From assembly GCA_951406725.2 (NCBI GenBank), contig OX597814.1, positions 8,122,001-8,186,000 on the forward strand: a stretch of 64,000 bases of DNA. Direction: 5' to 3'. Of the stretch, positions 2,896 to 36,515 are shown piece after piece (the first letter of the stretch is position 1; each line of letters begins with the position of its first letter). This DNA is from Octopus vulgaris. Taxonomy: Eukaryota. The translations under genes and the position numbers were made by a program. The notes under the pieces are model-generated. The model worked only from the letters and a program-made list of their open reading frames with translations. It did not search any database and was not told where the DNA came from.

Positions 2896-5033
2896 GATTG
2901 ATTGATTGATTGATTCTAGTTTCAGCTCATGAGCTGTGGCCATGCTGGGGCACCGCCATTTGGTGTTGCTACTTGGTTTTACTTTACGAATGCTTTCTAG
3001 CAACTGCCATTTGGTGCATGAGAGAGTTCGATGCAGCTGCCCTCATCTGTACCTCCTGCCGTGAAGTTGGTTCATCTGGGACACCTGACAGGAAGAGATC
3101 CAGTTTCATTTTAAAGACATCTGCGTCCACCCCATGCAGGTCTCTCAGGTTCTTCGGGAGGATATTGAAGAGCTGTGGGCCTCGGAAGCCCAGGCTATCA
3201 CAGTATCTTGTCCTACATCTTGATGGCAAATTTGGAGTCCTAGGCACCACGCAGTGGTGCCCAGTTCTGGCATTTGTGTAACTCTCGATGCCAAAGTTTG
3301 GGACACGTCCCTCCAGGATCTTCCAGATGTATATTATGGCATATCTTTCCCGCCTACGCTCCATGGAATATAGTTTTAATCTCTTGAGTCTTTCCCAGTA
3401 GCTTACATTCTGCATAGAGGCTATCTTCTTCGTGTAGCTACGCTGGATCGCCTCGAGCTCTGTGATCAACTTCACACTGGATGGTGACCATAACTGAGAG
3501 CAATAGTCAAAGTGGCTTAGGACAAGTGTCCTCCAAAGGACCATCATAGTTTCTTGCTCTCTTGTTCTAAAGGTTCTGAGAATCCATCCGGCCAGTCGTC
3601 TACATTTCATTGCCAATTTAGCAACATGAACACGAAAGGTTGCGTCATCACTCATATAAATACCCAGGTCACGCACTGATTGTGCCTCTGGGATTACTAT
3701 TCCTCCGGGTCCAGTGTATTCATTGGGTATTGCATTTAGTTTTGCATGCTGATAGTATAAAGCTTGAAACTTTTCAGCATTGAACTGCTATTCCTTTCAG
3801 CCCACTTGTATATTTTGTCCAGCTCACATTGCAGGCGTTTAGTGTCCTCAGGGTTCTGTATTGCCTGTGAAACTTTTGTATCATCTGCATAACTTGTGAT
3901 CGTGGCTCTCTGCGTGGCTGAGGGCATGTCTGAGAGGGCCATTACGAACAGTAGTGGTCCCAGAACAGTGCCCTGCGGGACACCGCTCACTATTTGCGTG
4001 TTAATGGAAGTGGCCCCATTGGCTACTACCACCTGACTTCTATCTTTCAGAAAGTCATGAAGCCATTCTCCCAGTTTTCCAACTATGTTGAGATCACGCA
4101 GTTTGTGACATATCATTCCATGATCGACTTTATCAAAGGCCTTCGCAAAGTCGAGATATATCACTTCCACATTTGAGTGGTTGAGCAGCCGTTTCAGCAC
4201 CCAGTCATAGTGTTGTAGGAGCTGAGTTAAACAGCTTCTCCCTGGTCGGAAACCATGTTGGGTGTCGGGCAGCAAGTCATTTTCTTCAAGGAAGGTGATC
4301 AGTTTCCTTCTGACTATTCGTTCCATGACTTTGCTGATGTGTGAGGTCAGAGAGATAGGTCTGTAGTTCTTGGCCTCCGCTCTGCTACCTCCTTCATGAA
4401 TAAGGCATATTTTACCTTCCTTCAGTTTTCTTGGAAGTTTGCCAGCTGCAAGGAAGCTCTGAAAGAGGAACTGCAGTGGTCTTGCTAGGACTCTCTTACA
4501 TGCTTTTAGGAGGATTGCCGGGAATCCATCGGGGCCAGTAGCTGAGTCTGTTTTCATTTCATCTATAGCCTTTATTACATCGTCTTCCTTTATATCGATG
4601 TAATCTATCGTCGCCGCCTCTGATTTTATATCTGCAGTGGTAAAGAAGTCTGTTGGATTGGTGATTTGGAGATGCCCAAGGGGTGGAGTGAAAACACTCT
4701 TGAATTACTCATTCGGTATTTCACTTACCCTCATTGGTTTTTTTGTAAGCGTGCCATCCTTTTCAAGGAGTGGCCCTATTCTACAGTGCACCGTAGCTGT
4801 TTCTTTGGCATACCTGTAGAAAGCTCTGGGATTAGATTTTATGTTGTCTATAGCCCAGGCTTCTTTGTCTGCTCTTTCCTTTTCATCGGAGAGTTGCAGA
4901 CATTTTTCAATTTCCAACAGTTTTATTTTCAGGCAGGACTTTTCACTGCTTTCAATCTGTTTGTTTAGGCGATTTGAAATTTTTGTAGGCCGTCTCATTA
5001 AAATTTTCCTCTCTCTGGGGATTTTGTTCTTGT

Positions 5034-5078: not shown

Positions 5079-6319
5079 GAGGGGCATTCAATAAGTAATG
5101 CCCCTGACCCACTTCCCATAGCAGTAGAGCAACGAAACTTGGCACAGTTATTAGTCTTTTCCTACATAGGAACCACTCAGAGTTACGCATTTCTCCCATT
5201 GTTTGATGCAGCTCTGGAGACTGTTTTTGTAGGAGACCCCAGCTTGGTCCTCCAACCTGAACGTGACTTCAGAAATCAAGGCTGCATCATCTGGGAAACG
5301 CTTTCCTTTCAAAAACAACTTCATGACTGGGAAGAGGTGAAAATCAGAGGAGTTCATAGCCATACGCCTGTGCTTCTGATCTGGCGACAAGCGAGTTGTG
5401 GACCGGAGCGTTGTCCTGCAGGAGGAGGATGCCTTTGCTGATCTTGCCCCGCCTCTTGATTTTGATAACTTCTCTTAATTTCCTCAAAAGTGAAGCATAA
5501 TAGGCTCCTGCAATTGTGGTATCCTTTGCCAAGAAATCTGTCATCACTACTCCGTCCTTGTCCCAGAAGACTGTGAGCATGACCTTGCCAGCGGAGGGCT
5601 GCACCCTTGCCTTCTTTGGAGGGGGTGAGTCACGGTGCTTCCACTGCATTGACTGGGCTTTGGTCTCTGGATCATCGTGATGGACCCAGGTTTCATCCTG
5701 TGCAATCAGTCTTTTGAAAAATTTTGACTCATCTTCTTGGCACATCTCCAAATTCACCCTCGAGCACTCGACGCGTTCTTGCTTCTGGAAAGGCGTGAGC
5801 AACCTGGAAATCCATCTGGCAGACACCTTTTGCATATGCAAATGGTCATGAATGATAGTTTCCACAGACCCGGTACTAATCTTGACCTCATGGGCTATTT
5901 GGCGAATAGTTATGCGTCGATCTTCCAAAATGACGGACAGATGCCTCATCAATGGCAGAAGGGGCGACCAGATCTGGGAGCTGTTTCCACAGAGTTCCGA
6001 CCATGTTTGAATTCACGATGCCAGCGTTTTACAAGGTCATATGATGGGGCATCATCACCATAAGTTACTTTCATTTCATCAAAAGTCTCCCGTGGTATGC
6101 GTCCTTTCAAATACCAAAACCGGATCACTGCTCGACACTCAACAGGCTCCATTTCACACTTGACTCGGTTCAAACACTTGAAAATCAGAAACCACAATTA
6201 ATTCAGAGCTGTAATTTGCCACTTACTCTATAAAGATATAAATGATTGCACATGTAAAATGTCAGCTAGATCAAACAACTGCAAGTGGGTTAGGGGCATT
6301 ACTTATTGAACGTCCCTCG
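5078..6319 (-). mobile_element. Mariner (Tc1/mariner DD34D) DNA transposon, defective copy 1
   Basis: TIRs CGAGGGGCATTCAATAAGTAATGCCCC... / ...GGGGCATTACTTATTGAACGTCCCTCG; TA at 5076-77 and 6320-21; motifs QDETW, KVMLTVFWD, QDNA. Confidence 0.95.
5151..6152 (-). pseudogene. Mariner transposase pseudogene
   Basis: Split across ORFs 5949-6197, 5344-5952 and 5151-5390; relative to copy 2 it has deletions at ~5930 and ~5350, the latter removing the PYSPDLAP motif. Confidence 0.9.
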
Positions 6320-6575
<256 letters not shown>

Positions 6576-6591
6576 AGAAAAATATTTAAAC

Positions 6592-6655
6592 CACCTGATG
6601 AATGACTGCGACTCAAAATTTTGAAGATGTTAGCAGGCATGAAACGATTGTAGTG
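6592..6655 (+). ncRNA. Type I hammerhead ribozyme, 5' pLTR copy
   Basis: CAC-CTGATGA-ATGACTGC...GCAGGCAT-GAAAC-GATT-GTA-GTG; stem III palindrome carries a C>T change. Confidence 0.75.
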
Positions 6656-6927
6656 TGATATTAATTATATTTTTTTAATAATTTTGTTATATATTTAAAT
6701 AATATAAATAAATCATATGTATTGGCTTAAGTTTTCCATTGTTTGATTTGCCTAATAGTGGTTTTGTCTCTAATTTAATATTATATAATATTTTTCTATA
6801 AAATTGGATTCAATCCTAAATCTGATTTTTCTCCGTAAGTTTGGATTTATTCCCTAATATTTATTATTATTAATTAATATATTGATAAATTACGTATATT
6901 GTGTGTAATATCTCAACTTCGTAAATT

Positions 6928-9410
6928 ATGGAATTTACAGGTAAGATAGAACCACTATTTTGGAATTCATCATTGAAGGATATTCCAGTACCTTCTAGAA
7001 AGGAATTTATTTTGAAACTTATTAATAATATTAAGGATTTTGTTTCTAGAATTAAATGGAAAGCTTACTATTATAACTATTATATATCTAATCTTAATGA
7101 TAGTATGAATGATAATTTTACCTCTAATTTTAAATCCAAAAAGGAACTCCCATTTAATAGAGTATTACAAATACTAGAAGATAATATTTGGAAGGTGGTG
7201 AAAAACATTAAATTTCATAAATACCCAAACAGAAATAATGAATATTTAAGAAATTTAGCAATTAGAATTAAAGATATGAGAAATATGGATGGTATTATTG
7301 TGCAATCTGATAAAACTAGGAATCTATATAAATTGGATGTTAAATTATATGATAACCTTTTAGAGAAAGAAATAATTAAAAAATATAAAATTGTTCCAGA
7401 TAGTAAACTTTATAATATTAATAAGGCCTCTAAATTAGTAATGATAAACTATGAATTGGATAATAAAACTGAACCTTATGTACCTATGCACCCTAGAATT
7501 ACTCTGAAAGACCATAAAGATAATTTTTATTCAGACCCTAAAGTTAGATTAATTTGTCCATGTAAATTTGACCTTGGTAAATTAAGTAAGCTTATTTTAG
7601 ATAAATATATTAATAAATTAAATAAACTTAATTACTTAAAATTATGGTTTAGTCATGATAATACTTTGAATTGGTTTAATAATATTAAAGATAAAAATCG
7701 TTATAAATTTATTCAAATAGATATAGGTAATTACTATTCTTCTATTAATGAAATTGTGTTTAATAAGGAGGCCCTTATTTTTGCAATGAATAAAGTGGGA
7801 ATGACATTTGAAGAAGTTAATGTAATTAAAATGGCTAGGAAATCGCTCATTAAATATAAAATAAATTATGGGCCAGGAAAGATACTAGGGATTTTTTTGA
7901 TATACCTATGGGAGCACCTGATTCTGCACAAGCTACGGATTTAGTAGGTATTTATCTTTTATCTGAACTCCAATTAGAAAATTTAAAGATAGAGGGTGGT
8001 TTATATAGGGATGACCTTCTACTAATTACTAAGAATTGCACTAATAGGAACCTAGAAGTATATAAGAAAAAACTTTATAGTTTCTTTAAAAGATATGGTT
8101 TAAGTATTACTATATATAATGAGAATTTTAATGTTAATTATTTAGATGTTAATTTTAATCTAATTACAGGTAAAACACAACCATATCATAAACTTAATGA
8201 GAACCTTAGATATATAAATGTTAATAGTAATCACCCACCATCAATTAAAAAATCGTTGATTAATAATATAAGTAAACGTATATCATTACTTTCTTATGAT
8301 ATAGAGATTTTTAATAAACATGCTCCTTATTATAATGAGGCCCTTAGAGAGGCAGGTTATAATAGTAATATTAAATTTTTTATTAAAAATAAAGATAAAG
8401 ATATAACTAATAATATTAGAGATAAAAATATTAATAATAATTATAATAATTTTGTTAGTAATAGTGGTAAAAATATTAGAAATTATAAAAATAAAAATAA
8501 TATAAATAAAAATAAGAATAAAAATAAAAATAAAAATAATAATAATAATAAAAATAAAAATAAAATTAATAACTTTAATAATTCTTTAAATGTTGATTAT
8601 AAATTTAAATCTGATAATAATAATAATAATAATATGATTTAAAAATGTAATTACAACAATAATAATGACAGTTTTAATAATAAGAAGGAAAATAAGAATA
8701 AAATTTGGTTAATAGTTCCTTATGGTGCTGAAGTTAAAACGAACATTATTAAAGAGATTTTAGATATTATTGAACTATTTATTCGAGATAATCGTAAATA
8801 TAAAAATATTTTCTCTAGTAATAATTTTGGAGTAGGTTATTCCACCACTAATAGTGTAGGTAACATTATTTCTTCTTTTAACAAATTTAAACTGAATAAT
8901 TTTTATAAAAATAAGATATTTAATAATACCAATAATAAAGACAAGACACTAATTAACTGTACATGTAGAGATAAATCTAAATGTAAATTAAATAATAAAT
9001 GTGATACTAATGATGTAGTGTAAAAATGTATAGTTACATTACATGATAAGAATATTAAGAATAATAATAACTCAAACGCGATATATATAGGGTCCACTTC
9101 CTCTAAAATGAAATTAAGAATCGCACAAAATTTGAATTCATTTAAAAATAAAAACTTAATTAACTCCACTGGACTTAGCAAGTACATTTGGAGACTTAAA
9201 TCCCAAAATATTAATTATAATTTATCTTGGGAAATAATTAGTAAAATTAAATCATATACTATAGGAGCGAATTTTTGTTATTTGTGCTCTAATGAGTTTA
9301 AGGAAATTTTACTTTATAAGCATGATAATTTACTGAATACCTGTGATGAGCGCAAAATAAAATGCAGACACAAGTTACTTTACTTATATAATAAGTTTCT
9401 TGATAAATAA
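6928..9410 (+). pseudogene. PLE reverse transcriptase / GIY-YIG endonuclease ORF, disrupted
   Basis: SDKTRNLY, ITLKDHKDNF, RLICP, DIGNYYSSI, MGAPDS, GLYRDD, YLDV, SNHPPSI, IWLIVPY, CTCRDKSKC, VV*KC...IYIGST, CYLC, KCRH; frameshifts near 7860-7905 and ~8785; stops at 8640 and ~9021. Confidence 0.9.
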
Positions 9411-11433
9411 TAATTATTTAATAGCCTTAATTAGCACCCTATTTATTGTTTTATGTAATAGTATTATAAATATACCAAGTGATTTGTAGTACATATTATA
9501 ATAGTTTATTTTAGTTATTTAGGTTTTGATTTTAATTATAGTTAGATTATAGATGGTTTTTCATTGTATTACTAAATATTTTATTACTGAATAATAAATA
9601 TTTAATGGTTTATTGAATATTGAGTCTGGTAAGTTACAATTTGATTTATTTTATAAATTTTATTATAATTTTTGTTATATTTCTATTATAACTTCGTTAA
9701 ATTATAATTTTGTTATATTAATCTATTTGTATGTAATCTCTTTATATTTGAAATAGTTTTATTTAGTTGTTTACTTTAATCCATTTTATTTAATATAGAA
9801 GTATAGATTAGTAGATTAATTTTTTAGATTTAACTTAATATTTACCTCTATTTTGTATTGTAGTATGATTATAGACATTTATATATCTATTTATTTATAA
9901 TATATGTGGATGTGTGTGTTTGTATATATGTGTATTTGATGATGTGTGTGTATATATATATATATATGTATATGCATTTATTTATTTGTATGTGTGTGGG
10001 TGTGTATATATTGGTGTAAGTGTATATATTGAGTATTGTATGTATGTACATGTATGAGTGTGCATATGTGTATGGGTGTAAGTGTGTGTATGTATATGTG
10101 TATATATGTATATGAATGTATGTGAGTATGTATGTGTATATGTGTATATATATGTATATGTATGTATATGTGTATATGTGTATATATGTATATATATATG
10201 TATATGTATGGATATTTTTTTATATATTTATGTATACGTATGTATAGTTATACTTCAAATTTTGATTAGTATATACAGATTTGTTATGATCACTAATTTT
10301 AGCTTATAATTATAAGGGTATGGGAAAGAATTTATAATATGTAGTGGGGTTACTATATACATTTATTTTTATGTATTTATTAATCTTATTAGATTTTTAG
10401 AATATATTTAATAATAAGTGGTTTTTAATCATTTAATTTATTTTGTATTAAGTTTCATTTATCATAGTTATTTTATTAATAAATATTATAGTATAGAGAG
10501 ATTTTATTCTTTATTTGTGAATTCTTTCTTTTTACAATGATAAACATATAATTTTCCATTCATAATCTTTAATAAACTTAGGTTCCTCACGCGTAATGAA
10601 TTCTTCAACAATTTATTCTTTTTTTTTGCTAATAACGTAATTCCATGAGTATTCTTATAAACGCTGTATAAGACGTTTTTTGATTCAAAATTTTAGTTCA
10701 TTGTTTAAACCTCGCCAAGAAAAGTATGTATCTTTTTAAGATCTTCAAATTGTAAATTTTAATATTGTATAAGCCTTTGGAGTAATAATATTCTCCTTAT
10801 GTAAATATTGTTGTTTATGTAATGATCTAATTATCGTAATTTTCTATGTTATTAGATATTAAATAAATTAGATAAACTTTGATAAAATTAGATATGTTTC
10901 GACAAAAGATTGGTCTAGGCCATGTCTAATTTAATAGCATAATTTATATTAGATAATTATTCCCATTCAAAATTATATTTATAGTACTTATAGTATTTAT
11001 TTAATACTATATTACTAAGAATTGAATATTTCTATAAGTATTTTACATAAGATTTTGAAAGTCAGTTTAAGTTAGTTTATTTGTATTTTGAAATTAGCTA
11101 TTTCATCTTTAAATATGAAAAATTAAATTTATTAGGTTTTCATTATATACAATTATTTATAGAGATTATTTTAGATCTTGATTATAATATTTATATATAT
11201 TTTCATTGATAATTTATATATATTAGTCATTTTAAATATTTATGTAATTAGATATAGACTAATATTGATATTAGAATATGGGTTTTCTATCTTATAAATT
11301 AAAGTTAATATTTAACATTATAGTCGATTTCGATATAATCATATTTAATAATAGAGTTTATTATAAGTAAAATTATTATATTATATATATTATTTATATC
11401 TTAAAATATTGATTATATTTTAGATATTTAAAC

Positions 11434-11497
11434 CACCTGATGAATGACTGCGACTCAAAAATTTGAAGATGTTAGCAGGCATGAAACGATCGTAGTG
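11434..11497 (+). ncRNA. Type I hammerhead ribozyme, 3' pLTR copy
   Basis: CAC-CTGATGA-stem II-GAAAC-GATC-GTA-GTG; palindromic stem III ACGATCGT; GUA cleavage triplet. Confidence 0.8.
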
Positions 11498-11624
11498 TGA
11501 TATTAATTATATTTTTTTAATAATTTTGCTATATATTTAAATAGTATAAATTAATCATATGTATTGGCTTAAGTTTTTCATTGTTTGATTTGCCTAATAG
11601 TGGTTTTGTCTCTAATTTAATATA

Positions 11625-11625
<1 letters not shown>

Positions 11626-11682
<57 letters not shown>

Positions 11683-11721
11683 CGAGAGAGAGATATTATA
11701 TATATATATACATATATATAC

Positions 11722-11751
<30 letters not shown>
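11626..11751. repeat. (TA)n/(GA)n microsatellite
   Basis: Direct observation. Confidence 0.97.
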
Positions 11752-11754
<3 letters not shown>

Positions 11755-13751
11755 ATAGAAATATTAAAATTACTAAGTCTCTCTAAAAGAGAACAAGGCA
11801 GCGTTCCTGGAAATTAATAGTTATCGCCATACTAATATGGCATTCTTATAAAAATAAGAATAAAGCTGTCCGTTTATTAGCTCCATGAGGCCATCGCCTT
11901 AAGTTAGCTATTTGATACACAAACTGTATCCATATAACCTTCGAACAAGGGAGGTCAGTCGCTCCACACTACTTGATCGACAGCTACAGACGCGTTGCAG
12001 GGTATTGCCCCTTTTCAATGCAGCGTAGTCAGACCAGTAGGTGTCGCTTCCGACAATCCCTGTTCGAAGGTTTTATTTACCTAGTTTCAGTGGAATACAT
12101 CCACTTGTTTTCAATAATAGAAATATTAAAATTACTAAGTCTCTCTAAAAGAGAACACGGCAGCGTTCCTGGAAATTAATAGTTATCGCCATACTAATAT
12201 GGCATTCTTATAAAAATAAGAATAAAGCTGTCCGTTTATTAGCTCCATGAGGCCATCGCCTTAAGTTAGCTATTTGATACACAAACTGTATCCATATAAC
12301 CTTCGAACAAGGGAGGTCAGTCGCTCCACACTACTTGATCGACAGCTACAGACGCGTTTCGGGGTATTGCCCCTTTTCAATGCAGCGTAGTCAGACCAGT
12401 AGGTGTCGCTTCCGACAATCCCTGTTCGAAGGTTTTATTTACCTAGTTTCAGTGGAATACATCCACTTGTTTTCAATAATAGAAATATTAAAATTACTAA
12501 GTCTCTAAAAGAGAACACGGCAGCGTTCCTGGAAATTAATAGTTATCGCCATACTAATATGGCATTCTTATAAAAATAAGAATAAAGCTGTCCGTTTATT
12601 AGCTCCATGAGGCCATCGCCTTAAGTTAGCTATTTGATACACAAACTGTATCCATATAACCTTCGAACAAGGGAGGTCAGTCGCTCCACACTACTTGATC
12701 GACAGCTACAGACGCGTTTCGGGGTATTGCCCCTTTTCAATGCAGCGTAGTCAGACCAGTAGGTGTCGCTTCCGACAATCCCTGTTCGAAGGTTTTATTT
12801 ACCTAGTTTCAGTGGAATACATCCACTTGTTTTCAATAATAGAAATATTAAAATTACTAAGTCTCTCTAAAAGAGAACACGGCACGTTCCTGGAAATTAA
12901 TAGTTATCGCCATACTAATATGGCATTCTTATAAAAATAAGAATAAAGCTGTCCGTTTATTAGCTCCATGAGGCCATCGCCTTAAGTTAGCTATTTGATA
13001 CACAAACTGTATCCATATAACCTTCGAACAAGGGAGGTCAGTCGCTCCACACTACTTGATCGACAGCTACAGACGCGTTTCGGGGTATTGCCCCTTTTCA
13101 ATGCAGCGTAGTCAGACCAGTAGGTGTCGCTTCCGACAATCCCTGTTCGAAGGTTTTATTTACCTAGTTTCAGTGGAATACATCCACTTGTTTTCAATAA
13201 TAGAAATATTAAAATTACTAAGTCTCTCTAAAAGAGAACACGGCAGCGTTCCTGGAAATTAATAGTTATCGCCATACTAATATGGCATTCTTATAAAAAT
13301 AAGAATAAAGCTGTCCGTTTATTAGCTCCATGAGGCCATCGCCTTAAGTTAGCTATTTGATACACAAACTGTATCCATATAACCTTCGAACAAGGGAGGT
13401 CAGTCGCTCCACACTACTTGATCGACAGCTACAGACGCGTTTCGGGGTATTGCCCCTTTTCAATGCAGCGTAGTCAGACCAGTAGGTGTCGCTTCCGACA
13501 ATCCCTGTTCGAAGGTTTTATTTACCTAGTTTCAGTGGAATACATCCACTTGTTTTCAATAATAGAAATATTAAAATTACTAAGTCTCTCTAAAAGAGAA
13601 CACGGCACGTTCCTGGAAATTAATAGTTATCGCCATACTAATATGGCATTCTTATAAAAATAAGAATAAAGCTGTCCGTTTATTAGCTCCATGAGGCCAT
13701 CGCCTTAAGTTAGCTATTTGATACACAAACTGTATCCATATAACCTTCGAA
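11752..13751 (-). repeat. 360-362-bp tandem array (~5.5 near-identical copies); candidate retrozyme satellite
   Basis: GACGCGTT recurs at 11989, 12351, 12711, 13072 and 13434; each unit has a minus-strand hammerhead and many hairpins. Confidence 0.95.
12345..12386 (-). ncRNA. Type I hammerhead ribozyme with U3:A8 core (also at ~12705-12746, ~13066-13107, ~13428-13469; mutated copy at ~11983-12024)
   Basis: Minus strand GCTGCA-TTGAAAA-GGGG-CAATA-CCCC-GAAAC-GC-GTC-TGTAGC: 6-bp stem I, 4-bp stem II, palindromic stem III, GUC cleavage site. Confidence 0.8.
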
Positions 13752-15975
13752 AACGAACCTCTCATATTTTTAAACATAAAAGACAATTGATTGAAAAACG
13801 TCAAATATGATACAAATTTTCCGAAGGCAGCAAAAAGCCAAGGCAAAAATAGTTTTAAAGGTTTAGAATCTTTTGATCAAGGTAAAATCTTTGTGAGAGT
13901 TTTTTTGAGTTTCATGTCATCTAAATGGCGAGACGAAAGGAACCGATGCTCTTTGGAATCGAAAACGAACCTCTCATATATTTAAACATAAAAGATAATT
14001 GATTGAAAAACATCAAAGATCATACAAATTTTCCGAAGGCAGCAAAAAGCCAAGTCAAAAATAGTTTTAAACGTTTAGAATCGGTAAAATCCTTGTGAGA
14101 GTTTTTTTGAGTTTCATGTCATCTAAATGGCGAGACGAAAGGAACCGATGCTCTTTGGAATCGAAAACGAACCTCTCATATATTTAAACATAAAAGATAA
14201 TTGATTGAAAAACATCAAAGATGATGCAAATTTTCCGAAGGCAGCAAAAAGCAAAGTCAAAAATAGTTTTAAAGGTTTAGAATCGGTAAAATCCTTGTGA
14301 GAGTTTTTTTGAGTTTCATGTCATCTAAATGGCGAGACGAAAGGAACCGATGCTCTTTGGAATAGAAAACGAACCTCTCATATATTTAAACATAAAAGAT
14401 AATTGATTGAAAAACATCAAAGATGATACAAATTTTCCGAAGGCAGCAAAAAGCCAAGGCAAAAATAGTTTTAAAGGTTTAGAATCTTTTGATCAAGTTA
14501 AAATCTTTGTGAGAGTTTTTTTGAGTTTCATGTCTTCTAAATGGCGAGATGAAAGGAACCGATACTCTTTGGAATCGAAAACGAACCTCTCATATATTTA
14601 AACATAAAAGATAATTGATTGAAAAACATCAAAGATGATACAAATTTTCCGAAGGCAGCAAAAAGCCAAGTCAAAAATAGTTTTAAAGGTTTAGAATCTT
14701 TTGATGAAGGTAAAATCTTTGTGAGAGTTTTTTTGAGTTTCATGTCATCTAAATGGCGAGATGAAAGGAACCGATGCTCTTTGGAATCGAAAACGAACCT
14801 CTCATATATTTAAACATAAAAGATAATTGATTGAAAAACATCAAAGATGATGCAAATTTTCCGAAGGCAGCAAAAAGCCAAGTCAAAAATAGTTTTAAAG
14901 GTTTAGAATCGGTAAAATCCTTGTGAGAGTTTTTTTGAGTTTCATGTCATCTAAATGGCGAGATGAAAGGAACCGATGCTCTTTGGAATAGAAAACGAAC
15001 CTCTCATATATTTAAACATAAAAGATAATTGATTGAAAAACATCAAAGATGATGCAAATTTTCCGAAGGCAGCAAAAAGCCAAGGCAAAAATAGTTTTAA
15101 AGGTTTAGAATCTTTTGATCAAGGTAAAATCTTTGTGAGAGTTTTTTTGAGTTTCATGTCATCTAAATGGCGAGATTAAAGGAACCGATGCTCTTTGGAA
15201 TCGAAAACGAACCTCTCATATATTTAAACATAAAAGATACTTGATTGAAAAACATCAAAGATCATACAAATTTTCCGAAGGCAGCAAAAAGCCAAGTTAA
15301 AAATAGTTTTAAAGGTTTAGAATATTTTGATGAAGGTAAAATCTTTGTGAGAGTTTTTTTGAGTTTCATGTCATCTAAATGGCGAGATTAAAGGAATCGA
15401 TGCTCTTTGGAATCGAAAACGAACCTCTCATATATTTAAACATAAAAGATAATTGATTGAAAAACATCAAAGATGATGCAAATTTTCCGAAGGCAGCAAA
15501 AAGCCAAGTCAAAAATAGTTTTAAAGGTTTAGAATCGGTAAAATCCTTGTGAGAGTTTTTTTGAGTTTCATGTCATCTAAATGGCGAGATTAAAGGAACC
15601 GATGCACTTTGGAATAGAAAACGAACCTCTCATATATTTAAACATAAAAGATAATTGATTGAAAAAACATCAAAGATGATGCAATTTTTCCGAAGGCAGC
15701 AAAAAGCCAAGGCAAAATAGTTTTAAAGGTTTAGAATCTTTTGATCAAGTTAAAATCTTTGTGAGAGTTTTTTTGAGTTTCATGTCATCTAAATGGCGAG
15801 ATTAAAGGAACCGATGCTCTTTGGAATCGAAAACGAACCTCTCATATATTTAAACATAAAAGATACTTGATTGAAAAACATCAAAGATGATGCAAATTTT
15901 CCGAAGGCAGCAAAAAGCCAAGGCAAAAATAGTTTTAAAGGTTTAGAATCTTTTGATCAAAGTAAAATTTTTGTC
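13747..15975. repeat. 212/202-bp satellite (~10.7 copies) with a 626-bp three-unit higher-order repeat
   Basis: Units start at 13747, 13959, 14161, 14363, 14575, 14787, 14989, 15201, 15413, 15615 and 15827; short units lack TTTTGATCAA. Confidence 0.95.
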
Positions 15976-20445: not shown

Positions 20446-23400
20446 ATGGCGACCCCCGTCGCCTTACAGATGAATCTACATCCGATTATGAACTGGGATT
20501 CTAGTGATGTTGTAGAAGCATTTAAAAAATTCAAACAAAAAACTCAACTAGCTTTCAAAAGTTTCCTGAAAGGCACAACTGACGATGAGAAGGTAAGCTA
20601 TATCCTTTTATGGTCAGGTAATAAAGGAATAGACCTATTCAATAGCTGGGATACGAGGGGCGTTCAATAAGTAATGCCCCTGACCCACCTTCCATAGGAG
20701 TAGAGCAACGAAACTTGGCACAGTTATTAGTCTTTTTCTACATAGGAACCACACAGAGTTACGCATTTCTCCCATTGTTTGCTGCAGCTCTGGAGACCGT
20801 TTTTGTAGAAGACCTCAGCTTGATCCTCCAACCACGACGTGACTTCAGAAATCAAGGCTGCATCATCTGGAAAACGCTTTCCTTTCAAAAACAACTTTAT
20901 GGCTGGGAAGAGGTGACAATCAGAGGGTGCAAGGTCAGGAGAGTAGGGGGATGGTGGAGGAGTTCATAGCCGCACGCCTGTGCTTCTGTTCTGGCGACAC
21001 GCAAGTTGTGGACCGGAGTGTTGTCCTGCAGGAGGAGGATGCTCTTGTGATCTTGCCCCGCCTCTTGATTTTGATAGCTTCTCTTAATTTCCTCAAAAGT
21101 GAAGCATAATAGGCTCCTGTAATTGTGGTACCCTTTTCCAGGAAATCTGTCATCACTACTCCGTCCTTGTCCCAGAAGACTGTGAGCATGACCTTGCCAG
21201 CGGAGGACTGCACCCTTGCCTTCTTTGGAGGAGGTGAGTCACGGTACTTCCACTGCATTGACTGGGCTTTGGTCTCTGGATCATAGTGATGGACCCAGGT
21301 TTCATTCTGTGTAATCAGTCTTTTGAAAAATTTTGACTCATCTTCTTGGCACATCTCCAAATTCACCCTCGAGCACTTGACGCGTTCTTGCTTCTGGAAA
21401 GCTGTGAGCAACCTGGGAATCCATCTGGCAGACACCTTTTGCATATGCAAATGGTCATGAATGATAGTTTCCACAGACCCGGTACTAATCTTGACCTCAT
21501 GGGCTATTTGGCGAATAGTTATGCGTCGATCTTCCAAAATGGCTGCCTCAACTTGACGGACAGATGCCTCATCAATGGCAGAAGGGGGGCGACCAGATCT
21601 GGGAGCTGTTTCCACAGAGTTCCGACCATGTTTGAATTCACGATGCCAGCGTTTTACAAGGTCATACGATGGGGCATCATCACCATAAGTTACTTTCATT
21701 TCATCAAAAGTCTCCCGTGGTATGCGTCCTTTCAAATACCAAAACCGGATCACTACTCGGCACTCAACAGGCTCCATTTCACACTTGACTCATTTCAAAC
21801 ACTTGTAAATTAGAAACCACAATTAGTTCAGAGCTGTAATTTGCCACTTAATCTATAGAGATATAAATAATTGCACATGCAAAATTTCAGCTAGTTCAAA
21901 CAACTGCAAGTGGGTCAGGGGCATTACTTATTGAACGTCTCTCGTATGTCAGAATCGGACTGCAATAACCCTGACACACTTCTTGAGAAATTTGAAAGGC
22001 ACCTAGAGCCCAGGTCGAACCATAGAATTCACAGATACTAATTCCAGGGCCTGAAACAAGACCCACAAGAAACAATTGACAATTTCCTGTCAAGACTGAA
22101 AAATGTTGCAGAGAAATTCAAATTCAAAGACAGGGAGGAGAGAATTGTAGACCAATTAATATGGGGGGGGGTGCCCACAAAGAAGTACAAAAATCACTAA
22201 TAGGTAAGGACGCTCTCCAGTTGGTAGAAGCAGTAGACACTGCAAGAGCATTCGAAGCCACTACCAAACAAATGGCCTCACTTAGCTTACAAACAAGCTC
22301 ACTAGGTAGCAGTGTAGATATTGTATCTAGGCACAGGACACATACCCACAAACAAAGAACATGCCAGTACTGTGGTCCAGAGCATGAGTTCGATAACCGG
22401 AAGAAATGTCCTGCGTTCGGTACACACTGCAAAGCATGTGGAAAACTTAACCACTGGGAAAAAAATGTGTAGGTTAACAAAATCCCAGAGATACAAGCCC
22501 CAATTTTCAAAGAGGAGCAGAAATAGAAGAGATATACATGCACAACAACAGGAACAAAACACCTCAGAGGAGGAATTCTTGGCAGTCGGCATAATAAATG
22601 TGCATGAGATGGGAAAGGACGACCGGAAGAAAGAAGATGAGGCATACACAACAATAAAAATACAGAAGAAGTCTGGCAGGAAACGAACAAACATAGACTT
22701 AAGGCTAAAGATTGACACTGGAGCCCAGAGTAATATCTTACCTGTCAACCTCTACAAAAAGATGTTCCCAGAACACATAACAAAAGAGGATAAAGTCAAA
22801 CAAGGAATCCTCACACCAAGTGATGTAATCCTCACTGCGTACGGAGGAACCAGGATTCCACAACTGGGTAAAACAACTATCACAGGGACACACAAAGGAA
22901 AATTAATTAAGTGTTCTTTTTATGTCACAAGAACAGAAGGGCCAGCAATTCTTGGACTCAATACCTGCAAAAAGCTAAATATTGTATCAATCAATGCTGA
23001 AGTGAAAGCAGCTCCAAGCAGGTTTGACAGAGATATGCCTATCAAAGATCGACCACAAATCACAAACAAAGAGGAACTGATAAGCATGTACCCTGAATGC
23101 TTTGACGATACAGTCGGGTGCTATGTGAAATATCGATATCATATAACAGTCGACCCCAATATCAAACCAATTGTTAACCCACCTCGCTGCGTCCCTCTAG
23201 AACTAAAAGAGAAGCTGAAGACAGAGTTGGACAGAATGGAAAAAAAAGAAATAATCACCAAAGTGACACGACCAACAGACTGGGTGAATTCAATTGTAAT
23301 CAAGGAAAAACCCAATGGTACCCTACGGATATGCCTCGACCCAAGGGACCTGAACAAGGCATTAAAAAGAGAGTACCATCCAATTCCAACCCTTGAAGAA

Positions 23401-25763
23401 ATCACACCATCATTGGCTGGATCCAAATTATTCAGCAAACTGGATGCCAGTAAGGGGTACTGGAATATAAAGATAGACAAAGAGTCATCCATGCTCACTA
23501 CCTTCAACACACCATTTGGCATATATCGGTTCAACCGACTCCCATTTGGATTGAAGGTGAGCCAAGATGTTTTCCAGCGTCAAATACATTAGACCTACCA
23601 AGGCTGCAAGGGAGCAATTGGAATAGCAGATGACATCCAAGTGCATGTCAAGGATGAGACCACACATGACTTCAATTTACATGAAGCTATGGAGAAAACC
23701 CGACAAGCAGGCATCAAACTCAATGCAGACAAGTGTATAATAAAAGAAAAGGAGTACAAATTCTTTGGAATTATATACTCTGCAGAGGGAGTTAAGCCAG
23801 ACCCCGCTAAAGTGGAAGCCATCAGAGACATTAAAGATCCTAAAGACAGGAAGGAACTCAGGAGCTTCCTGGGACTCATCAACTACATGGGAGCCTTCAT
23901 ACCCAAGCTGGCCGATCACACTGCAAATCTCCGAGAGCTAAACAAAGATGACGTAGAGTTTGATTGGTGTGCTTCACACACACAGGATTTCAAAACAATC
24001 AAAAAGCTCATCAGTAAGGAGACAACTCTGCAATACTATGACAGACGCAAACCAGTAATATTCCAAGTCGATGCTTCTATGAGAGGAGTTGGTGCAGCAC
24101 TGATACAGGAAGGTAAACTCATTGCCTATACCTCGAAAGCTCTCTCACCCACAGAGACAAGGTACGCGAATATTGAAAGGGAACTCCTGGCAGTAGAATA
24201 TGGATGCGAAAAGTTCCATACATACCTGTACGGCAGACATTCCAATATAGAAACAGACCATCGCCCGCTAGAACAAATACATAGAAAAAACCTCATGAAA
24301 GCACCAGCCAGACTGCAAAGATTACTGTTAAGGCTTCAAACATACGACTATGACATCAGGTACAAGCCAGGAAAAGACCTGATATTGGCGGATGCTCTTT
24401 CCAGACTATCCTCACATGATAAACAGGAGATGGAAGGACTAAGCATAAAGGTCCACCACATTGTAAATGTGACAACCACAAAGCTAGCGAAAATCAAAGA
24501 GGAGACCAGCAAAGATGAAGAACTTCAGCTCCTTACTCAGATGGTGATTCAGGGGTGGCCAGAAAAGAGACATCAGGTGCAACCCCTGATTCGTGAATAT
24601 TGGGCCATCCATGATGATATATCAGTGGAGAATGGAATCCTGATGGCTGGATCCCGAATAATTATACCCAAGTCAATGCAAGAAGAGATTCTTGACAAGA
24701 TCCACCATGGGCATCTCGGAATGGAGAAATGCAAGCTCCGAGCCAAGTCAGCAGTATATTGGGTATGCATGTACAAAGACATAGAGAAGACAGTTTCTAC
24801 ATGCCACATCTGTCAAAAGTACAGAAACTCACAACAAAAGGGGGAAATGATATCTAGTGACATCCCAAGAAGACCATGGCAAACTATTGGAGTAGATCTG
24901 TTCACAGAGGGCCAAGAATGGTATTTGATAATGGCCTGCTACTGCTCCAAATTTCCATTTGTGAGAAAAGTGAAAGACCTGACAGCCAAAACAATCACTA
25001 CAGTGGCCCGAGGACTTCTAGCAGAGCAAGGAATACCAGAGCAGATCATATGTGACAATGGAACCCAGTTCACATCACAAGAATTCAAAAAGCTAGCCGA
25101 TGAGTATGGGTTCAATATTACAACTTCATCTCCACACTACCCCATGGATTTATAGAAAGACAGGTGCAGACAGTGAAGAGAACACTAGTCAAATGCCGAG
25201 AGACTAAGGAAGACCCACACCTGGCACTTCTGTCCCTACGAGCGACACCACTGAGAGCTGATATGAAATCCCCAGCAGAATTACTGAATGGCAGGAAGTA
25301 CAAAACTACCCCGCCAACTAAGATCCAACCTCCTATTGACCAGGAAGAGACAAGGGCAAAGCTAGCAGCCACTCAAGAACAATCACAGAGGTATTACAAC
25401 AAACATGCACAATATTTACCTGAGATACTTGGAGGACAACATGTGCATGCTCAAGATCCCATAACTAAAACATGGATCCCAGCACAGGTTGTCAGTAGAG
25501 CTGAAACTCCAAGATCATATATAATAGAAATGGAATCTGGTTGGCAGCTGAGACGCAACAGGGCCCACATCCGCCCAACACCAGAGCTGTCGAGGACAAC
25601 GTGTACAACACCTGCTGCATTAGTGACAACACCCACAGAATCATCACCCCAACGTTCACAAACCACCTATCAGCAGCCCAACAACACACCTCAGACACCG
25701 GTGCGAAGCACAAGATCCACCAGATGGAGAAAGAACATTCTGCCACCGGTTCGATACCGTTAA
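20446..25763 (+). pseudogene. Gypsy gag-pol, disrupted by the mariner insertion, stops and frameshifts
   Basis: Double knuckle CQYCGPEH...CPAFGTHCKACGKLNH; protease IDTGAQSN; RT LRICLDPRDLN, KLDASKGYW, IADDI; RNase H VDAS, YANIERELLA, TDHRPL; integrase HHGHLG...CHIC, DNGTQF. Confidence 0.95.
20654..21944 (-). mobile_element. Mariner transposon copy 2, nested in Gypsy gag
   Basis: Same TIRs as copy 1; TA duplication at 20652-53 and 21945-46; transposase 21777 to ~20727 with a frameshift near 21045 and the first catalytic D mutated (TQNETW). Confidence 0.96.
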
Positions 25764-30665: not shown

Positions 30666-31269
30666 AGTGGCATCTCCAAATCTCTCTCTTTGCACATTAG
30701 ATTAATATAAGCAATGTCAACCACCACCACTGTCATCATCGTCATCAATTTTCCATAATGGAATATGTTGAATACTTTGACAGGATCTGGTGAGCAGCAT
30801 TGACCTCTAGGGTCAGCTTTGGCATGGTTTCTATTGCTCGGTGCCCTTCCTAATGCCAACCACTTTACAGAGTGGACTGGGGGAAATTTTTCTGCCATCA
30901 TTACGAGGGAGGTTGCCAAGTAATGTCCAAGACAGAAAAAAAAAGGAAAAACACTCCTTCTACTAAATGGAGTGAGGAACTGAAAGGGTTATGTAGGGAT
31001 TATGGTAGGTGTTGAAAGGCTAAAGTACGATCAAGGAGGTACAATAGAGAAAATATAGAGCACTGTTCTGTTTCCAGTTGCCACACCATTCTGTGTCCAC
31101 TCATTAAAACTTATTAATCATCAACAATTTGACTGTCACGGTTAAGCTTTTACAATGAAGAGGTCTCAACAGCGAAACATGTCTGAAGTTGTCTCTCTAT
31201 TGCTAAATTCATTCCTTCACCATATGCTGAAGGAATGAACTTGATGTTCCTTCAGCATTTGGTGAAGGA

Positions 31270-34200
31270 GTGAATTTGAAACTACACAGCCAGGAATTGA
31301 ACGTGATGGAAGTTCCTGGCTCACACCCACAAAGTCGCCTGTTTTTCGTTTGTGATCGTGTAACAGGCATGCGTTTCTTGGTTGACACCGGCGCAGAAGT
31401 CCGCATCATCCCTGTTTCCAACACATCAGGAAAAAGAAAAGGGACACCAGTCTGTCTTCAGGCAGTTAACCACTCACCCATTCCAACCTACAGTGAACAG
31501 TCCCTAACGTTGAACTTAGTACTACGCCGCACCTTTCAGTGGGTTTTTGTCATTGCTGAACTGCCGACCCCTATTTTAGGAGCCGATTTCCTGCATTATT
31601 TCGGTCTCCTGGTAGACATTAAAAACAGACAACTTGTCGACAGCACCACACAGCTTACTGTGCGCGGTTTGGCCGCTCGTATGGCCACAGTCAGCCAAAC
31701 TATATTGCCCGCAACAACAACTCGTCACAGTTCTATCCTGAAAGAATATCCGGACGTCGCCCGATCAGTATTCCACAACCAGCCGATCAAACACAACGTT
31801 ACCCACCGCATCAAAACCAGCGGTCCACCTGTTGCTGCAAGGCTCAGAAGGATACCACCTGATCGTCTCAAGGCCGTCAAGCGGGAATTCCAGCACATGC
31901 TCGACCTCGGAATCATCCGCCCTTCTAGCGGCAACTGGTCCTCGCTGATACACTGAATCCCCCCAAAAATTATCGACCGATTGGCGGGCTTGCGGTGTAC
32001 TGTACTGTAAGTGATGCATATCCAGTGCCCTATTTGCAGGATTTTTCTAACTCGCTGCATGGAGCTTGCATCTTTTCCAAGATCGACCTTGTGCGAGCAT
32101 ACAACCAAATCCCAGTGGAACCTGTGGACATCCCGAAGACAGCAGTTACTACACGCTTCAGAATGTTTGAATTCCCGTGTATGCCTTTTGGTTTACGCAA
32201 CGTGGCACAGACATTCCAAAGGTTTATCGACATGGTTACTAGAGATCTGTCTTTTGTCTATGCCTACGTAGACGACATACTCATGGCCAGTAGCTCAGAC
32301 GAAGGACATGACCTGCACCAGCTATTTGAACGCCTCTGCAAATACAGTGTTGTTATCAACCCCAGCAAGTGTTCGTTTGGGTTGCTTCCCTTCAGTTTTT
32401 CGGACACATCTCCTTCCCGAGAAAGTCAAGGCCATCGTGGATTTTCCACCACCCACATCTCTCTGCAAATTAAGGGAATATTTTGGCCTAGTGAATTTCT
32501 ATCAAAGGTTCGTACCCCACCTCGCTGAGATAGTGCAACCGCTCACGGATTTGGTATGTCAGTGAACTTGCAAAAATACAGAAATTGCCCTGAACGAAGA
32601 TCAACTCGTCTCTTTCACTGCCCTGAAAAAAGCGTTATCCAACGCTACCATGTTGGTTTATCCAAAACCATACGCCCCACGATGTTTACTCATTGATGCA
32701 TCCGATTTCGGAATTGGAGATGTACTACAGCAGCTTGTTGACGGCATATGGCAACCGTTGTCCTTCTTTTCTAAGCGGTTAAAACCCACTGAAACAAAAT
32801 ACAGCACATTCAGTCAGGAATTATTAGCGGCATACCTGGCCGTTAAGCATTTCCGTCACATGCTAGAAGGTACCAATTTTGCCATATACACCGACCACAA
32901 GCCATTGGTATATGCATTTAACACCAAGCCGGATCGCCACTCGCCGAGAGAAATCCGCCACCTCAACTTCATATCGCAGTATACGACAGATATAAGCCAC
33001 ATCAAAGGGACAACCATCTTAGCAACCGATGCACTTTCACGCACGCAGATCAATGCTATCCACACCACGGCTACAATTGATCTGGCACGTATAGCAGCTG
33101 ACCAGGAGAATGACGAAGAACTTCTAAAGCTCCGGAATTCGTCATCTTTGAAATTTCAGCATGTTCCACTACCATCATCCACGGCCCATATTTGGTGTGA
33201 TATCTCCACTGGTCACCAACGCCCTTGTATACCACAAACATCGTCAAGAAGTTTTCTTTGCTCTGCATTCTTTCTCACATCCTGGTATTTACTCCACTCA
33301 AATGCTGATATCGACCCGTTTTGTGTGGACCAGTATCAACAAGGATATCAGAGAATGGACCAAGTGCTGTGTTGCGTGCCAAAAAGTGAAAATCCACCGG
33401 CACATAAAATCACCAATCGGTTCCTTTTCGCAACCCGACGCACGATTTCAGCACGTTCACATTGACATCGTGGGACCTCTTCCACCTTCGCAGAATTATA
33501 CACATTTGCTTACCTGCGTAGATCGTTTTTCGCGATGGCCCGAAGCCTGGCCCTTACCTGATACATCAGCAGAAACGGTCGCCAAAACGCTGATATCACA
33601 ATGGGTTTCGCGTTTTGGCACACCCGCAACAATCACCACTGACAGAGGACGTCAGTTTGATTCCCACCTCTTCACCAAGCTGACTCGTCTCCTCGGGTGT
33701 AAACACACCCGCACTATGGCTTACCACCCTGCAGCAAATGGCATGGTCGAACGCTTTCACTGCCAACTCAAGGCATCTATCAAAGCAGCTCCAGACAGTT
33801 CTCACTGGTTGGGACATATCCCTCTCATCCTCCTTGGATTTCGATCCACGGTTAAGGAGGAACTGGGATATACTTTGGCTGAACTCGTTTATGGCACAGC
33901 ACTCACCTTACCTGGGCAGATGATCGAACCTGTTTCACAAGACTTTCCTGACCCACAACAATATGTGCACCGATTACGGACATCCATGTCGCAGTTATCA
34001 CCTTCAGGCCCCAGACAACAGAACGTTGTTTCACGTGTCCCAAAAGACATCAACACGTGGACTCATGTTTTCGTGAGGAATGATGGGATACCATCTCAAC
34101 TTCGGCCACCATATTCCGGGCCCTACAAGGTTATCAAAAGAGAACCCAAGTATTTCGTCCTCGATATTGGAGGTAAATGAAATACGGTCTCGATTGATCG

Positions 34201-35509: not shown

Positions 35510-35549
<40 letters not shown>

Positions 35550-35670
35550 AATTTAGACTCAAATGAATATGGTACTTGATTTAGATGCACCAGAATACTG
35601 TATGGAGTTGTCCATAAAAATCCGTGGGGTGGTTATAATCAAAATAAGCAACAAGCATGACTCCGGTAAT

Positions 35671-35756
35671 TTGGTACGATCGTTTCGTACTACATCATTT
35701 TATTAAATGTTGTAAGTATTACAACAGTTTTAAGATGCTGTGCACTCATCAGCCAA
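35671..35756 (-). ncRNA. Type I hammerhead ribozyme, left arm
   Basis: Minus strand TTGG-CTGATGA-GTGC...GTAC-GAAAC-GATC-GTA-CCAA. Confidence 0.75.
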
Positions 35757-36217
35757 TTATAGAGGTTTTCCATTAATACAAAAATTTCCATATCAAGTGG
35801 CAACATTATAGAGAAGGTAGATATATAGACAAAGATGTGGATTTAAATTTTAAGAACATTTGAGGCAGTGGAGCTCATCAACTGACTGACTAAGATTCGG
35901 TTGCTCCAGACACTGAAAGATTCTGAGAGGGAAGAATAAGTGAAAAGAGACAATAAAGAATTTTCTAAATATAGAAATGGGTTAGGGTTAGGATTATTTC
36001 TATAATTAGAAAATTCTTTATTGTCTCTTTCCACTTATCCTTCCCTCTCAGAATCTTTCAGTATCTGGAGCAAACGAATCTTAGTCAGTCAGTTGATGGA
36101 CTCCACTACCTCAAAAGTTCTTACAATTTAAATCCAAATCTTTGTCTATATATCTACCTTCTCTATAATGTTGCCACTTGATATGAAAATTTTTGTATTA
36201 ATGGAAAACCTCTATAA

Positions 36218-36303
36218 TTGGCTGATGAGTACTCAGCATTTTAAATCTGTTGTAATACTTACAACATTTAATAAAATGATGTAGTACGAAACGATCGTAC
36301 CAA
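36218..36303 (+). ncRNA. Type I hammerhead ribozyme, right arm, long stem II
   Basis: TTGG-CTGATGA-GTACT...AGTAC-GAAAC-GATC-GTA-CCAA. Confidence 0.8.
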
Positions 36304-36335
36304 ACAAACGGAGTCATTCTTGTTGCTTATTTTGA

Positions 36336-36515
<180 letters not shown>

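What the first reader, a model, noticed from the sequence alone, without database searches (positions are those of the whole stretch)
11752..13751. 361-bp satellite is a candidate retrozyme: one hammerhead ribozyme per monomer, predicting a ~361-nt circular RNA
Seen: ~5.5 near-identical tandem units. On the minus strand each reads GCTGCA-TTGAAAA-GGGG-CAATA-CCCC-GAAAC-GC-GTC|TGTAGC, a type I hammerhead. Stem I extends past a bulge (ACTAC/GTAGT), and stem III is the short palindrome ACGCGT. The minus-strand 3' end abuts (TA)n next to a Penelope-like element. Known: metazoan non-LTR retrozymes (e.g. newt satellite 2, schistosome Sm-alpha) are tandem repeats of a few hundred nt with type I hammerheads. 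They are processed to monomers, often circular, and are thought to use PLE proteins; palindromic stem III allows dimeric cleavage. Inference: this is an apparently cephalopod retrozyme family, laid down by rolling-circle reverse transcription of a circular RNA.
Basis: partly seen in the sequence, partly recalled or inferred. Interest (0 to 1): 0.9.

Follow-up and report, generated by a model that had tools for sequence, protein, structure and literature searches.

The report
Self-cutting RNA parasite of Penelope retrotransposons
This 362-base repeat is one of more than a thousand scattered copies of a small non-coding jumping element that carries a hammerhead ribozyme fold, and its insertion scars suggest that its RNA likely cuts itself in the cell and is likely copied into the genome by a borrowed Penelope-type enzyme starting from two fixed points.

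Summary
Confirmed with corrections. The array (11752-13751, 5.5 units of 360-362 bp) is not a local satellite but one insertion of a dispersed, non-coding retroelement family (774 exact hammerhead cores; over 1,000 more in older subfamilies). Four units carry an intact minus-strand type I hammerhead (U3-A8 core); the unit beside (TA)n has A13 mutated. Across subfamilies the stems covary, a homologous sister family has the canonical C3-G8 core, and loop III is one of four different palindromes, as dimer cleavage requires. In 116 loci, 187 of 205 arms end at one of two fixed points 63 nt apart, mostly at (TA)n; in tail-out inversions one arm uses each point (69 of 70). That is the Penelope 'tail' signature. 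5' ends pile up at the predicted cleavage site (13 of 205, 2.8 expected), indirect evidence of in-vivo cleavage. The neighbouring Hydra-type Penelope element is unrelated in sequence and only a candidate helper. A circular RNA is plausible but not shown; linear multimers explain much of the same data. Verdict: new member of a known kind (non-LTR retrozyme) with unusually clear mechanistic scars.

The parts
11752..13751 (-). Retrozyme insertion: 5.5 tandem units of 360-362 nt, single arm, 3' end at site A, 5' end at unit position 169
12341..12392 (-). Type I hammerhead of unit 2: upper stem I 12392-12390/12343-12341, UAC bulge, stem I 12386-12381/12350-12345, U3-A8 core 12380-12374, stem II 12373-12361, GAAA 12360-12357, palindrome ACGCGT 12357-12352, cut 12351|12350
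12701..12752 (-). Intact hammerhead, unit 3 (cut 12711|12710)
13062..13113 (-). Intact hammerhead, unit 4 (cut 13072|13071)
13424..13475 (-). Intact hammerhead, unit 5 (cut 13434|13433)
11979..12030 (-). Hammerhead of the 3'-most unit with core change A13>C (11997) and C11.1>U (11999); predicted inactive
12301..12433 (-). Long stem (unit positions 43-175) carrying the hammerhead at its tip; compensatory pair 48/172; its 3' foot (TTCGAA, 162-172) is a 5'-truncation hot spot
11752..11817 (-). 'Tail': the 63 nt between fixed 3' end B (unit ~297-301; 11813-11817 here) and fixed 3' end A (unit 362; 11752), the inferred reverse-transcription start sites
11620..11751 (.). (TA)n/(GA)n target tract shared by the array's 3' end and the neighbour's 3' end
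13747..13751 (.). 5' junction: TCGAA microhomology with the 200/212-bp satellite
6585..11620 (+). Neighbouring Hydra-type Penelope-like element, broken ORF (6925-9410), own pLTR hammerheads at 6595 and 11437; separate element, candidate helper family only

Best explanation
The array is one insertion of a dispersed non-coding retroelement whose 362-nt unit carries a conserved hammerhead fold; its RNA likely self-cleaves as a dimer, is likely ligated in part into 362-nt circles, and is likely copied into (TA)n tracts by a borrowed Penelope-type enzyme that starts at two fixed sites 63 nt apart. Steps: (1) shown: dispersed, non-coding, tandem, fixed 3' ends, ragged 5' ends. (2) Strongly inferred (0.9): ribozyme activity has been selected, in dimer mode. 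(3) Inferred (0.8): cleaved RNA is used as template, since cDNAs stop at the cut site. (4) Inferred (0.85): both target strands are nicked and primed, one at site A and one at site B of the same RNA haplotype; the two cDNAs meet through 1-6 bp microhomology to give tail-out inversions. (5) Inferred (0.55): multi-unit arms come from the enzyme running round a circle. (6) Inferred (0.5): the helper is a Hydra-clade element; which family is unknown.
For: 774 exact cores genome-wide, control 0; 1,047 more in older subfamilies. Covariation over 25 copies: 96.9% paired, 11 of 17 pairs with two-sided change, score 0.46 vs 0.19 shuffled and <=0.13 for slid controls. Homologous sister family (score 176 vs 82+/-10; 120 vs 66+/-10 outside the ribozyme) has C3-G8 where this has U3-A8. 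Loop III is CGCG, CATG, CTAG or CCGG; 97 of 100 listed older cores palindromic (counted by hand); two modules co-fold into the dimer hammerhead as minimum-energy structure, -36.5 vs 2x-15.2 kcal/mol. 187 of 205 arms end at A or B, 162 of them at (TA)n; 84 of 116 loci are tail-out inversions, 69 of 70 classifiable pairs are A+B; microhomology 1-6 bp in 54 of 84. Same two ends in subfamilies at 71-88% identity and homologous ends in the sister family. Opposite arms share haplotype at 836 of 876 sites vs 65% at random. 5' ends at 124-128: 13 of 205 vs 2.8, p=7e-6, flanking windows at background; genome-wide 25 true ends vs 5 at a matched control site. For a circle: 212 read-throughs of the cut site, no indel at 124-127 in 214 segments, units of a locus 1.4% apart vs 3.5% between loci, 7 locus-wide private variants, 331 singleton vs 19 partly shared rare alleles, circular fold z=-9.2. 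PAc Penelope protein nicks both strands, starts internally at two sites that bound the genomic tail, and is predicted dimeric (PMC11167929). Intact 840- and 954-aa Hydra-type ORFs exist in this genome.
Against: No cleavage assay and no circular RNA shown. 5 of the 13 arms stopping at the cut site had already read through one or more sites, which fits partly cleaved linear multimers better than a clean circle. 19 rare alleles are shared by some but not all units of a locus. In a sister subfamily 5 of 36 cores read CCAG (none CTGG), each beside CCGG units in the same locus: a weak hint of mixed multimer templates (3'-most position not significant, hand-computed Fisher p about 0.26). Subfamily 2 shows no 5'-end excess at the cut site (0 of 48, 0.7 expected; sample chosen to span the ribozyme). 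A stronger 5'-end hot spot at 162-172 (27 of 205) shows that structure alone makes stops. Within the young family core conservation alone is not significant (0 of 12 core sites among 22 polymorphic sites). No sequence link to any of the Penelope pLTRs tested (|z|<1.3). No promoter found. Eight of nine Xenopus retrozyme dimers tested in vitro did not cleave (bioRxiv 2026.07.22.740005).
Confidence: 0.6

Rival explanations
1. Same element and same Penelope-type copying, but the templates are linear, partly cleaved multimer transcripts from long source arrays; circles are absent or play no part.
For: 5' ends at the cut site after one to three read-throughs in 5 of 13 cases; partly shared variants; CCAG/CCGG mixtures in the sister subfamily; alternating unit variants in L211; PAc uses unprocessed RNA in vitro (PMC11167929).
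Against: Arms are short (median 403 nt; 23 of 205 over two units), so arrays would shrink each generation without a monomer-to-multimer step; many array-wide haplotypes and 7 locus-wide private variants need such a step; unit length is held at 359-364 nt across subfamilies.
Confidence: 0.3
2. Insertions arrive as roughly one unit and the tandems grow afterwards by unequal crossover, as an ordinary satellite.
For: Private variants shared by adjacent inner units at L104, L133, L121 look like later local duplication; this model is proposed in bioRxiv 2026.07.22.740005.
Against: 331 singleton vs 19 shared rare alleles: units diverge star-like from birth, and units in opposite arms are as close as units in one arm (1.5% vs 1.4%); 116 of 205 arms exceed one unit.
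Confidence: 0.06
3. The unit is just the pLTR of an autonomous Penelope element and copies are its 5'-truncated remains.
For: Same tail, inversion and (TA)n anatomy as the neighbouring Penelope family; Xenopus retrozymes match pLTRs.
Against: In young, 88% and 71-87% subfamilies position 362 wraps to position 1, not to an ORF; Penelope fragments near 4 loci are not contiguous with the unit; the ribozyme has the 6-bp/4-bp canonical build, unlike the long-stem-II minimal motifs in this genome's pLTRs. Only about 170 of more than 1,000 loci were seen.
Confidence: 0.03
4. An ordinary satellite with a chance hammerhead-like motif.
For: No Rfam hit; non-standard core.
Against: 1 of 5,000 shuffles; covariation; U3-A8/C3-G8 swap between homologues; dispersal on both strands of at least 25 contigs.
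Confidence: 0.01

Closest known systems
Metazoan non-LTR retrozymes (Acropora, Mytilus 350-390 bp, axolotl/newt 330-350 bp; PMC7229834)
   Same: Tandem non-coding units of 150-450 bp, one canonical type I hammerhead per unit, weak palindromic helix III, self-paired fold, long TSDs when visible, Penelope elements in the same genome.
   Different: U3-A8 core; two fixed 3' ends, tail-out inversions and (TA)n targeting are not described in the sections read; circles shown there, not here.
Penelope-like elements: PAc Poseidon (PMC11167929) and Hydra clade (PMC8557442)
   Same: Tail between two internal start sites, inverted 5'-truncated copy, partial tandems, (TA)n targets (Hydra).
   Different: No ORF; tail 63 nt rather than 30-40; canonical rather than minimal hammerhead; genomic ends at the cleavage site, which were not detected in PAc RNA reads.
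Xenopus retrozymes as pLTR derivatives (bioRxiv 10.64898/2026.07.22.740005)
   Same: Non-autonomous Penelope dependants, mostly under seven units.
   Different: There the link is pLTR homology; here no homologous pLTR was found and the link is the insertion anatomy. Their stated descriptors (canonical and minimal type I) may miss a U3-A8 core (inference).
U3-A8 minimal hammerheads of Schistosoma Cercyon elements (PMC4209133)
   Same: Same core swap.
   Different: Those are heterogeneous, mostly single minimal motifs; here the swap sits in a canonical, tandem, conserved ribozyme.
Non-autonomous Chlamys elements such as MRC1 (PMC8557442)
   Same: Non-autonomous Penelope dependants forming head-to-tail multicopy insertions.
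   Different: Chlamys generally lack canonical hammerheads, and these share 3' ends with an autonomous family.

Membership tests
Type I hammerhead ribozyme | Conserved core with paired positions 3 and 8, GAAA, NUH | tested here: met
   U3-A8 variant; C3-G8 in homologous sister family; only N7 polymorphic in the young family
Type I hammerhead ribozyme | Helices I (6 bp), II (4 bp), short palindromic III | tested here: met
Type I hammerhead ribozyme | Loop 1-loop 2 tertiary contact | tested here: inconclusive
   UAC bulge plus U132 are 94% conserved vs 67% in flanks; likeness to the Sm-alpha contact motif is recalled, not tested
Type I hammerhead ribozyme | Match to Rfam hammerhead models | tested here: not met
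   no hit at gathering or E<=10; likely due to the variant core (inference)
Type I hammerhead ribozyme | Self-cleavage | not testable with these tools
   indirect only: excess 5' ends at the site
Non-LTR retrozyme | Tandem units of 150-450 bp, each with a type I hammerhead, at least two consecutive intact | tested here: met
   four consecutive intact units
Non-LTR retrozyme | No coding capacity, no LTR/PBS/tRNA head | tested here: met
   longest ORFs 21 and 53 aa, no strict A/B box; no tRNA
Non-LTR retrozyme | Dispersed multicopy, not flanking an RT ORF | tested here: met
   (about 170 loci seen)
Non-LTR retrozyme | TSDs longer than 4 bp when present | tested here: inconclusive
   11-16 bp duplications at 4 of 12 loci with non-(TA)n flanks; hidden at (TA)n sites
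Non-LTR retrozyme | Expressed as monomeric linear and circular RNA | not testable with these tools
   only contigs of runs guessed to be RNA were available
Penelope-like element insertion | Tail extension at one end, inverted 5'-truncated copy, partial tandems | tested here: met
   69 of 70 A+B pairs; 84 of 116 loci inverted
Autonomous Penelope-like element | RT plus GIY-YIG ORF between pLTRs | tested here: not met
   none in the unit or joined to it
Hydra clade (neighbouring element) | RWK-like, DKT, CxCX5C, CxxC and CxH motifs; (TA)n targets | tested here: met
   motifs read in the 840- and 954-aa ORFs against section 11 of PMC8557442; no tree built; Pfam and PDB gave no significant hit

The most novel reading that the evidence does not exclude
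An old lineage of circular ribozyme RNAs, with no surviving sequence tie to any Penelope element, parasitises a dimeric Hydra-clade enzyme: the two subunits prime opposite target strands at two fixed sites on one RNA circle and roll round it, which would explain both how animal retrozymes spread and how Penelope tails and inversions arise, with genomic 5' ends recording in-vivo ribozyme cleavage.
Probability: 0.35. Interest if true: 0.8.

Novelty: new member of a known kind. Interest (0 to 1): 0.58.

Why it matters
Which enzyme mobilises animal retrozymes, and whether their hammerheads act in the transposition cycle, are open: a 2020 review says the repeats show no motif that reveals the helper (PMC7761336), and for PAc no RNA ends were found at the cleavage site. 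This family gives a 362-nt substrate with two mapped start sites, an almost strict one-site-per-strand rule, a predicted cut site marked by genomic 5' ends, and intact candidate enzymes in the same genome, so a reconstitution test is direct. It also shows that variant-core hammerheads form large families that Rfam misses here.

Tried and rejected
Rfam: no hammerhead hit. Expression: no RNA holder listed on record; contigs of three runs guessed to be RNA and one run of unknown kind hold the unit but cannot show strand, ends or circles; not used as evidence either way. The control search was mis-specified (first letter allowed the reference base; 12 of 22 hits were one substitution variant) and was replaced. 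The ACTAC/GTAGT extension was rejected. The neighbouring element as parent was rejected: no similarity of the unit or the sister unit to its pLTRs, to the 35.5-36.3 kb family, to L287's 5' region or to the 212-bp satellite; L287 lacked a recognisable pLTR, so that second family was not properly tested. Penelope fragments near L013, L085, L113, L136 are chance neighbours. Pol III boxes and tRNA: none. Apparent 5'-end pile-up at unit 1-6 is a BLAST edge artefact. Rows dropped: duplicate loci; L051 as a segmental twin of L050; L081 replaced by L121 and its edge arm dropped; arms under 24 nt or under 90% identity. Of 29 hits, four are internal variants and two are twins; of 8, three are a one-base deletion. 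One of the 13 ends (L096) has an ambiguous junction. Earlier scan notes: nothing found.

Full report
Numbering. Unit position 1 = window 12475 and 362 = window 12114, read on the minus strand; the predicted cut follows position 125 (window 12351|12350).

Observation. TRF finds period 362, 5.5 copies, 99% matches at 11752-13751. Units differ by 0-3 changes. A descriptor scan of the whole window finds the stated hammerhead in four units; the unit beside (TA)n has A13>C and C11.1>U, and the partial 5' unit has none. The core is UUGANAA, the U3-A8 swap reported in Schistosoma Penelope elements (PMC4209133, passages). Rfam does not detect it. One of 5,000 shuffles matches as well. The unit has no ORF over 53 aa, no tRNA and no strict Pol III box.

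It is a dispersed family. The own genome (2.8 Gb, unnamed) gives 2,529 first-look candidates, the best at 96-100% on many contigs, and 774 exact intact cores against 0 for the reversed pattern. A subfamily at 88% and older ones at 71-87% (1,047 cores, control 7; 20 loci fetched, 19 matching the unit) keep the same unit length and wrap from position 362 to 1. A 359-nt sister family is homologous along its length (score 176 vs 82+/-10 shuffled; 120 vs 66+/-10 without the ribozyme) and has the canonical C3-G8 core. Contigs from runs labelled as other organisms (B, C) also hold the unit.

The ribozyme has been selected. On 25 natural copies the hammerhead structure is 96.9% paired, 11 of 17 pairs change on both sides, covariation 0.46 vs 0.19 shuffled and at most 0.13 slid (copies are related, and older ones were picked by a core pattern, so core identity there is not evidence). 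RNAalifold finds stems I and II unaided. Loop III is CGCG, CATG, CTAG or CCGG, all four palindromic options, each a double change; 97 of the 100 older cores listed are palindromic where 3 of 12 allowed combinations are (hand count; not independent copies). Closing stem III in a monomer costs 5.6 kcal/mol, whereas two modules co-fold into the dimer hammerhead as the minimum-energy structure. This matches the dimer mechanism described for newt and axolotl motifs (PMC7229834 results; PMC6155905 passages).

Insertion anatomy. In 116 distinct loci with 205 arms, 92 arms end at site A (354-362), 95 at site B (291-305), 18 elsewhere; 162 of the 187 abut (TA)n. 84 loci are tail-out inversions; of 70 pairs with both ends classifiable, 69 are A+B and one B+B; 54 of 84 junctions have 1-6 bp microhomology. 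Opposite arms agree at 836 of 876 polymorphic-site comparisons vs 65% at random. Subfamily 2 repeats the rule (13 of 17 pairs clear A+B, 1 near B, 3 with an end elsewhere) and the sister family has homologous ends 47 nt apart. TSD-like 11-16 bp repeats show at 4 of 12 non-microsatellite sites. This is the Penelope pattern of tail plus inverted truncated copy (PMC8557442 passages). The PAc protein nicks both strands, starts internally at two sites that bound the tail, and is predicted dimeric (PMC11167929 parts 1-2 of 4). I infer that each target strand is primed at one of the two sites. The window's array is a single arm: end A at 11752, 5' end at position 169.

Evidence for cleavage in vivo. 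5' ends fall at 124-128 in 13 of 205 arms vs 2.8 expected (p=7e-6, site fixed beforehand); 110-123 and 129-142 are at background. A genome-wide pattern gave 25 true ends at 125-128 vs 5 at a matched site 148-151 (p=1.6e-4). Caveats: a larger hot spot lies at the foot of the long stem (27 of 205), and subfamily 2 shows no excess (0 of 48).

Circle or multimer. Arms read through the cut site 212 times with no indel at 124-127 in 214 segments, which argues against end-to-end template jumping. Units within a locus are 1.4-1.5% apart vs 3.5% between loci, with 7 locus-wide private variants and 331 singleton vs 19 partly shared rare alleles: multi-unit at birth from one haplotype, as a circle predicts. 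The circular fold is unusually stable (z=-9.2; other strand -7.4). Against: 5 of 13 stops follow earlier read-throughs, and mixed units occur. I put the circle at about 0.55; a mixture of circles and cleaved linear RNA is likely.

The neighbour. 6585-11620 is a plus-strand Penelope-like element with a broken ORF and its own long-stem-II hammerheads. Its family has about 840-aa open frames at many loci and a second family has 863-955 aa; the two read carry Hydra-clade motifs, and Hydra elements target (TA)n. It shows the same two-end anatomy but no sequence likeness to the unit. Adjacency is explained by the shared target; it is a candidate helper, not a proven one.

What is known. Non-LTR retrozymes are an established class with circles shown in coral, mussel and axolotl (PMC7229834 parts 2-4 of 6; supplement unreadable), and a 2026 preprint links Xenopus families to pLTRs (parts 1-3 of 5 read; supplements closed). 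Giant squid annotation lists 235 Rfam hammerheads without analysis (PMC6962438 passages). Nine searches showed no paper on this family, on the A+B rule in retrozymes, or on 5' ends at the cut site; most hits were seen as listings only and the library omits many journals. That the host is an octopus is recalled likeness (genome size, repeats), not a tool result.

Verdict. New member of a known kind; interest 0.58. The class is known, but the scars tie it mechanistically to Penelope two-site priming and make helper identity and ribozyme function directly testable.

Noticed in passing
window 6585-11620 (+): Hydra-type Penelope-like element with broken ORF and pLTR hammerheads at 6595 and 11437; family has many intact ~840-aa frames and two fixed 3' ends about 80-100 nt apart at (TA)n. 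Pfam gives no hit even on an intact ORF.
   Followed up: partly
window 35548-36337: Tail-out inverted pair of another pLTR-type family with hammerheads at 35752 (-) and 36222 (+); arms end about 140 and 38 nt after the cut site, at TA tracts.
   Followed up: no
L207-L236 (e.g. G000:C1:20002278-20004542): Sister 359-360-nt retrozyme family with canonical C3-G8 core, ACCGGT palindrome and 47-nt tail; L211 array alternates two unit variants; one subfamily has CCAG in 5 of 36 cores.
   Followed up: partly
one search list, own genome: Many single, diverse canonical-core hammerheads with short stem II and mostly palindromic loop III (CATG, CTAG); no Penelope ORF within 1.5 kb in those fetched.
   Followed up: no
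L267-L286, L204: Older U3-A8 subfamilies (71-87% identity), over 1,000 cores, same two ends; L282 has a U3-A8 core but resembles the sister family (64%), a possible bridge.
   Followed up: partly
window 13747-15974: 200/212-bp satellite (414-bp higher-order period) joined to the array's 5' end by TCGAA microhomology; no likeness to the unit.
   Followed up: partly
window 36516-64000: 37-bp satellite of about 740 copies running to the window's end.
   Followed up: no
window 2984-4704, 5344-6012, 20935-21789, 22318-25763, 31231-34180: Fragments that look like a LINE RT, two mariner-type transposases and two LTR-retrotransposon pol regions (read from ORF translations; names recalled).
   Followed up: no
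unit positions 162-172 (window 12304-12314): Strongest 5'-truncation and fold-back hot spot, at the TTCGAA palindrome that is kept on both sides of the long stem across subfamilies.
   Followed up: partly
L050/L051 (C29): The same insertion twice 134 kb apart, likely a segmental duplication or assembly twin.
   Followed up: no
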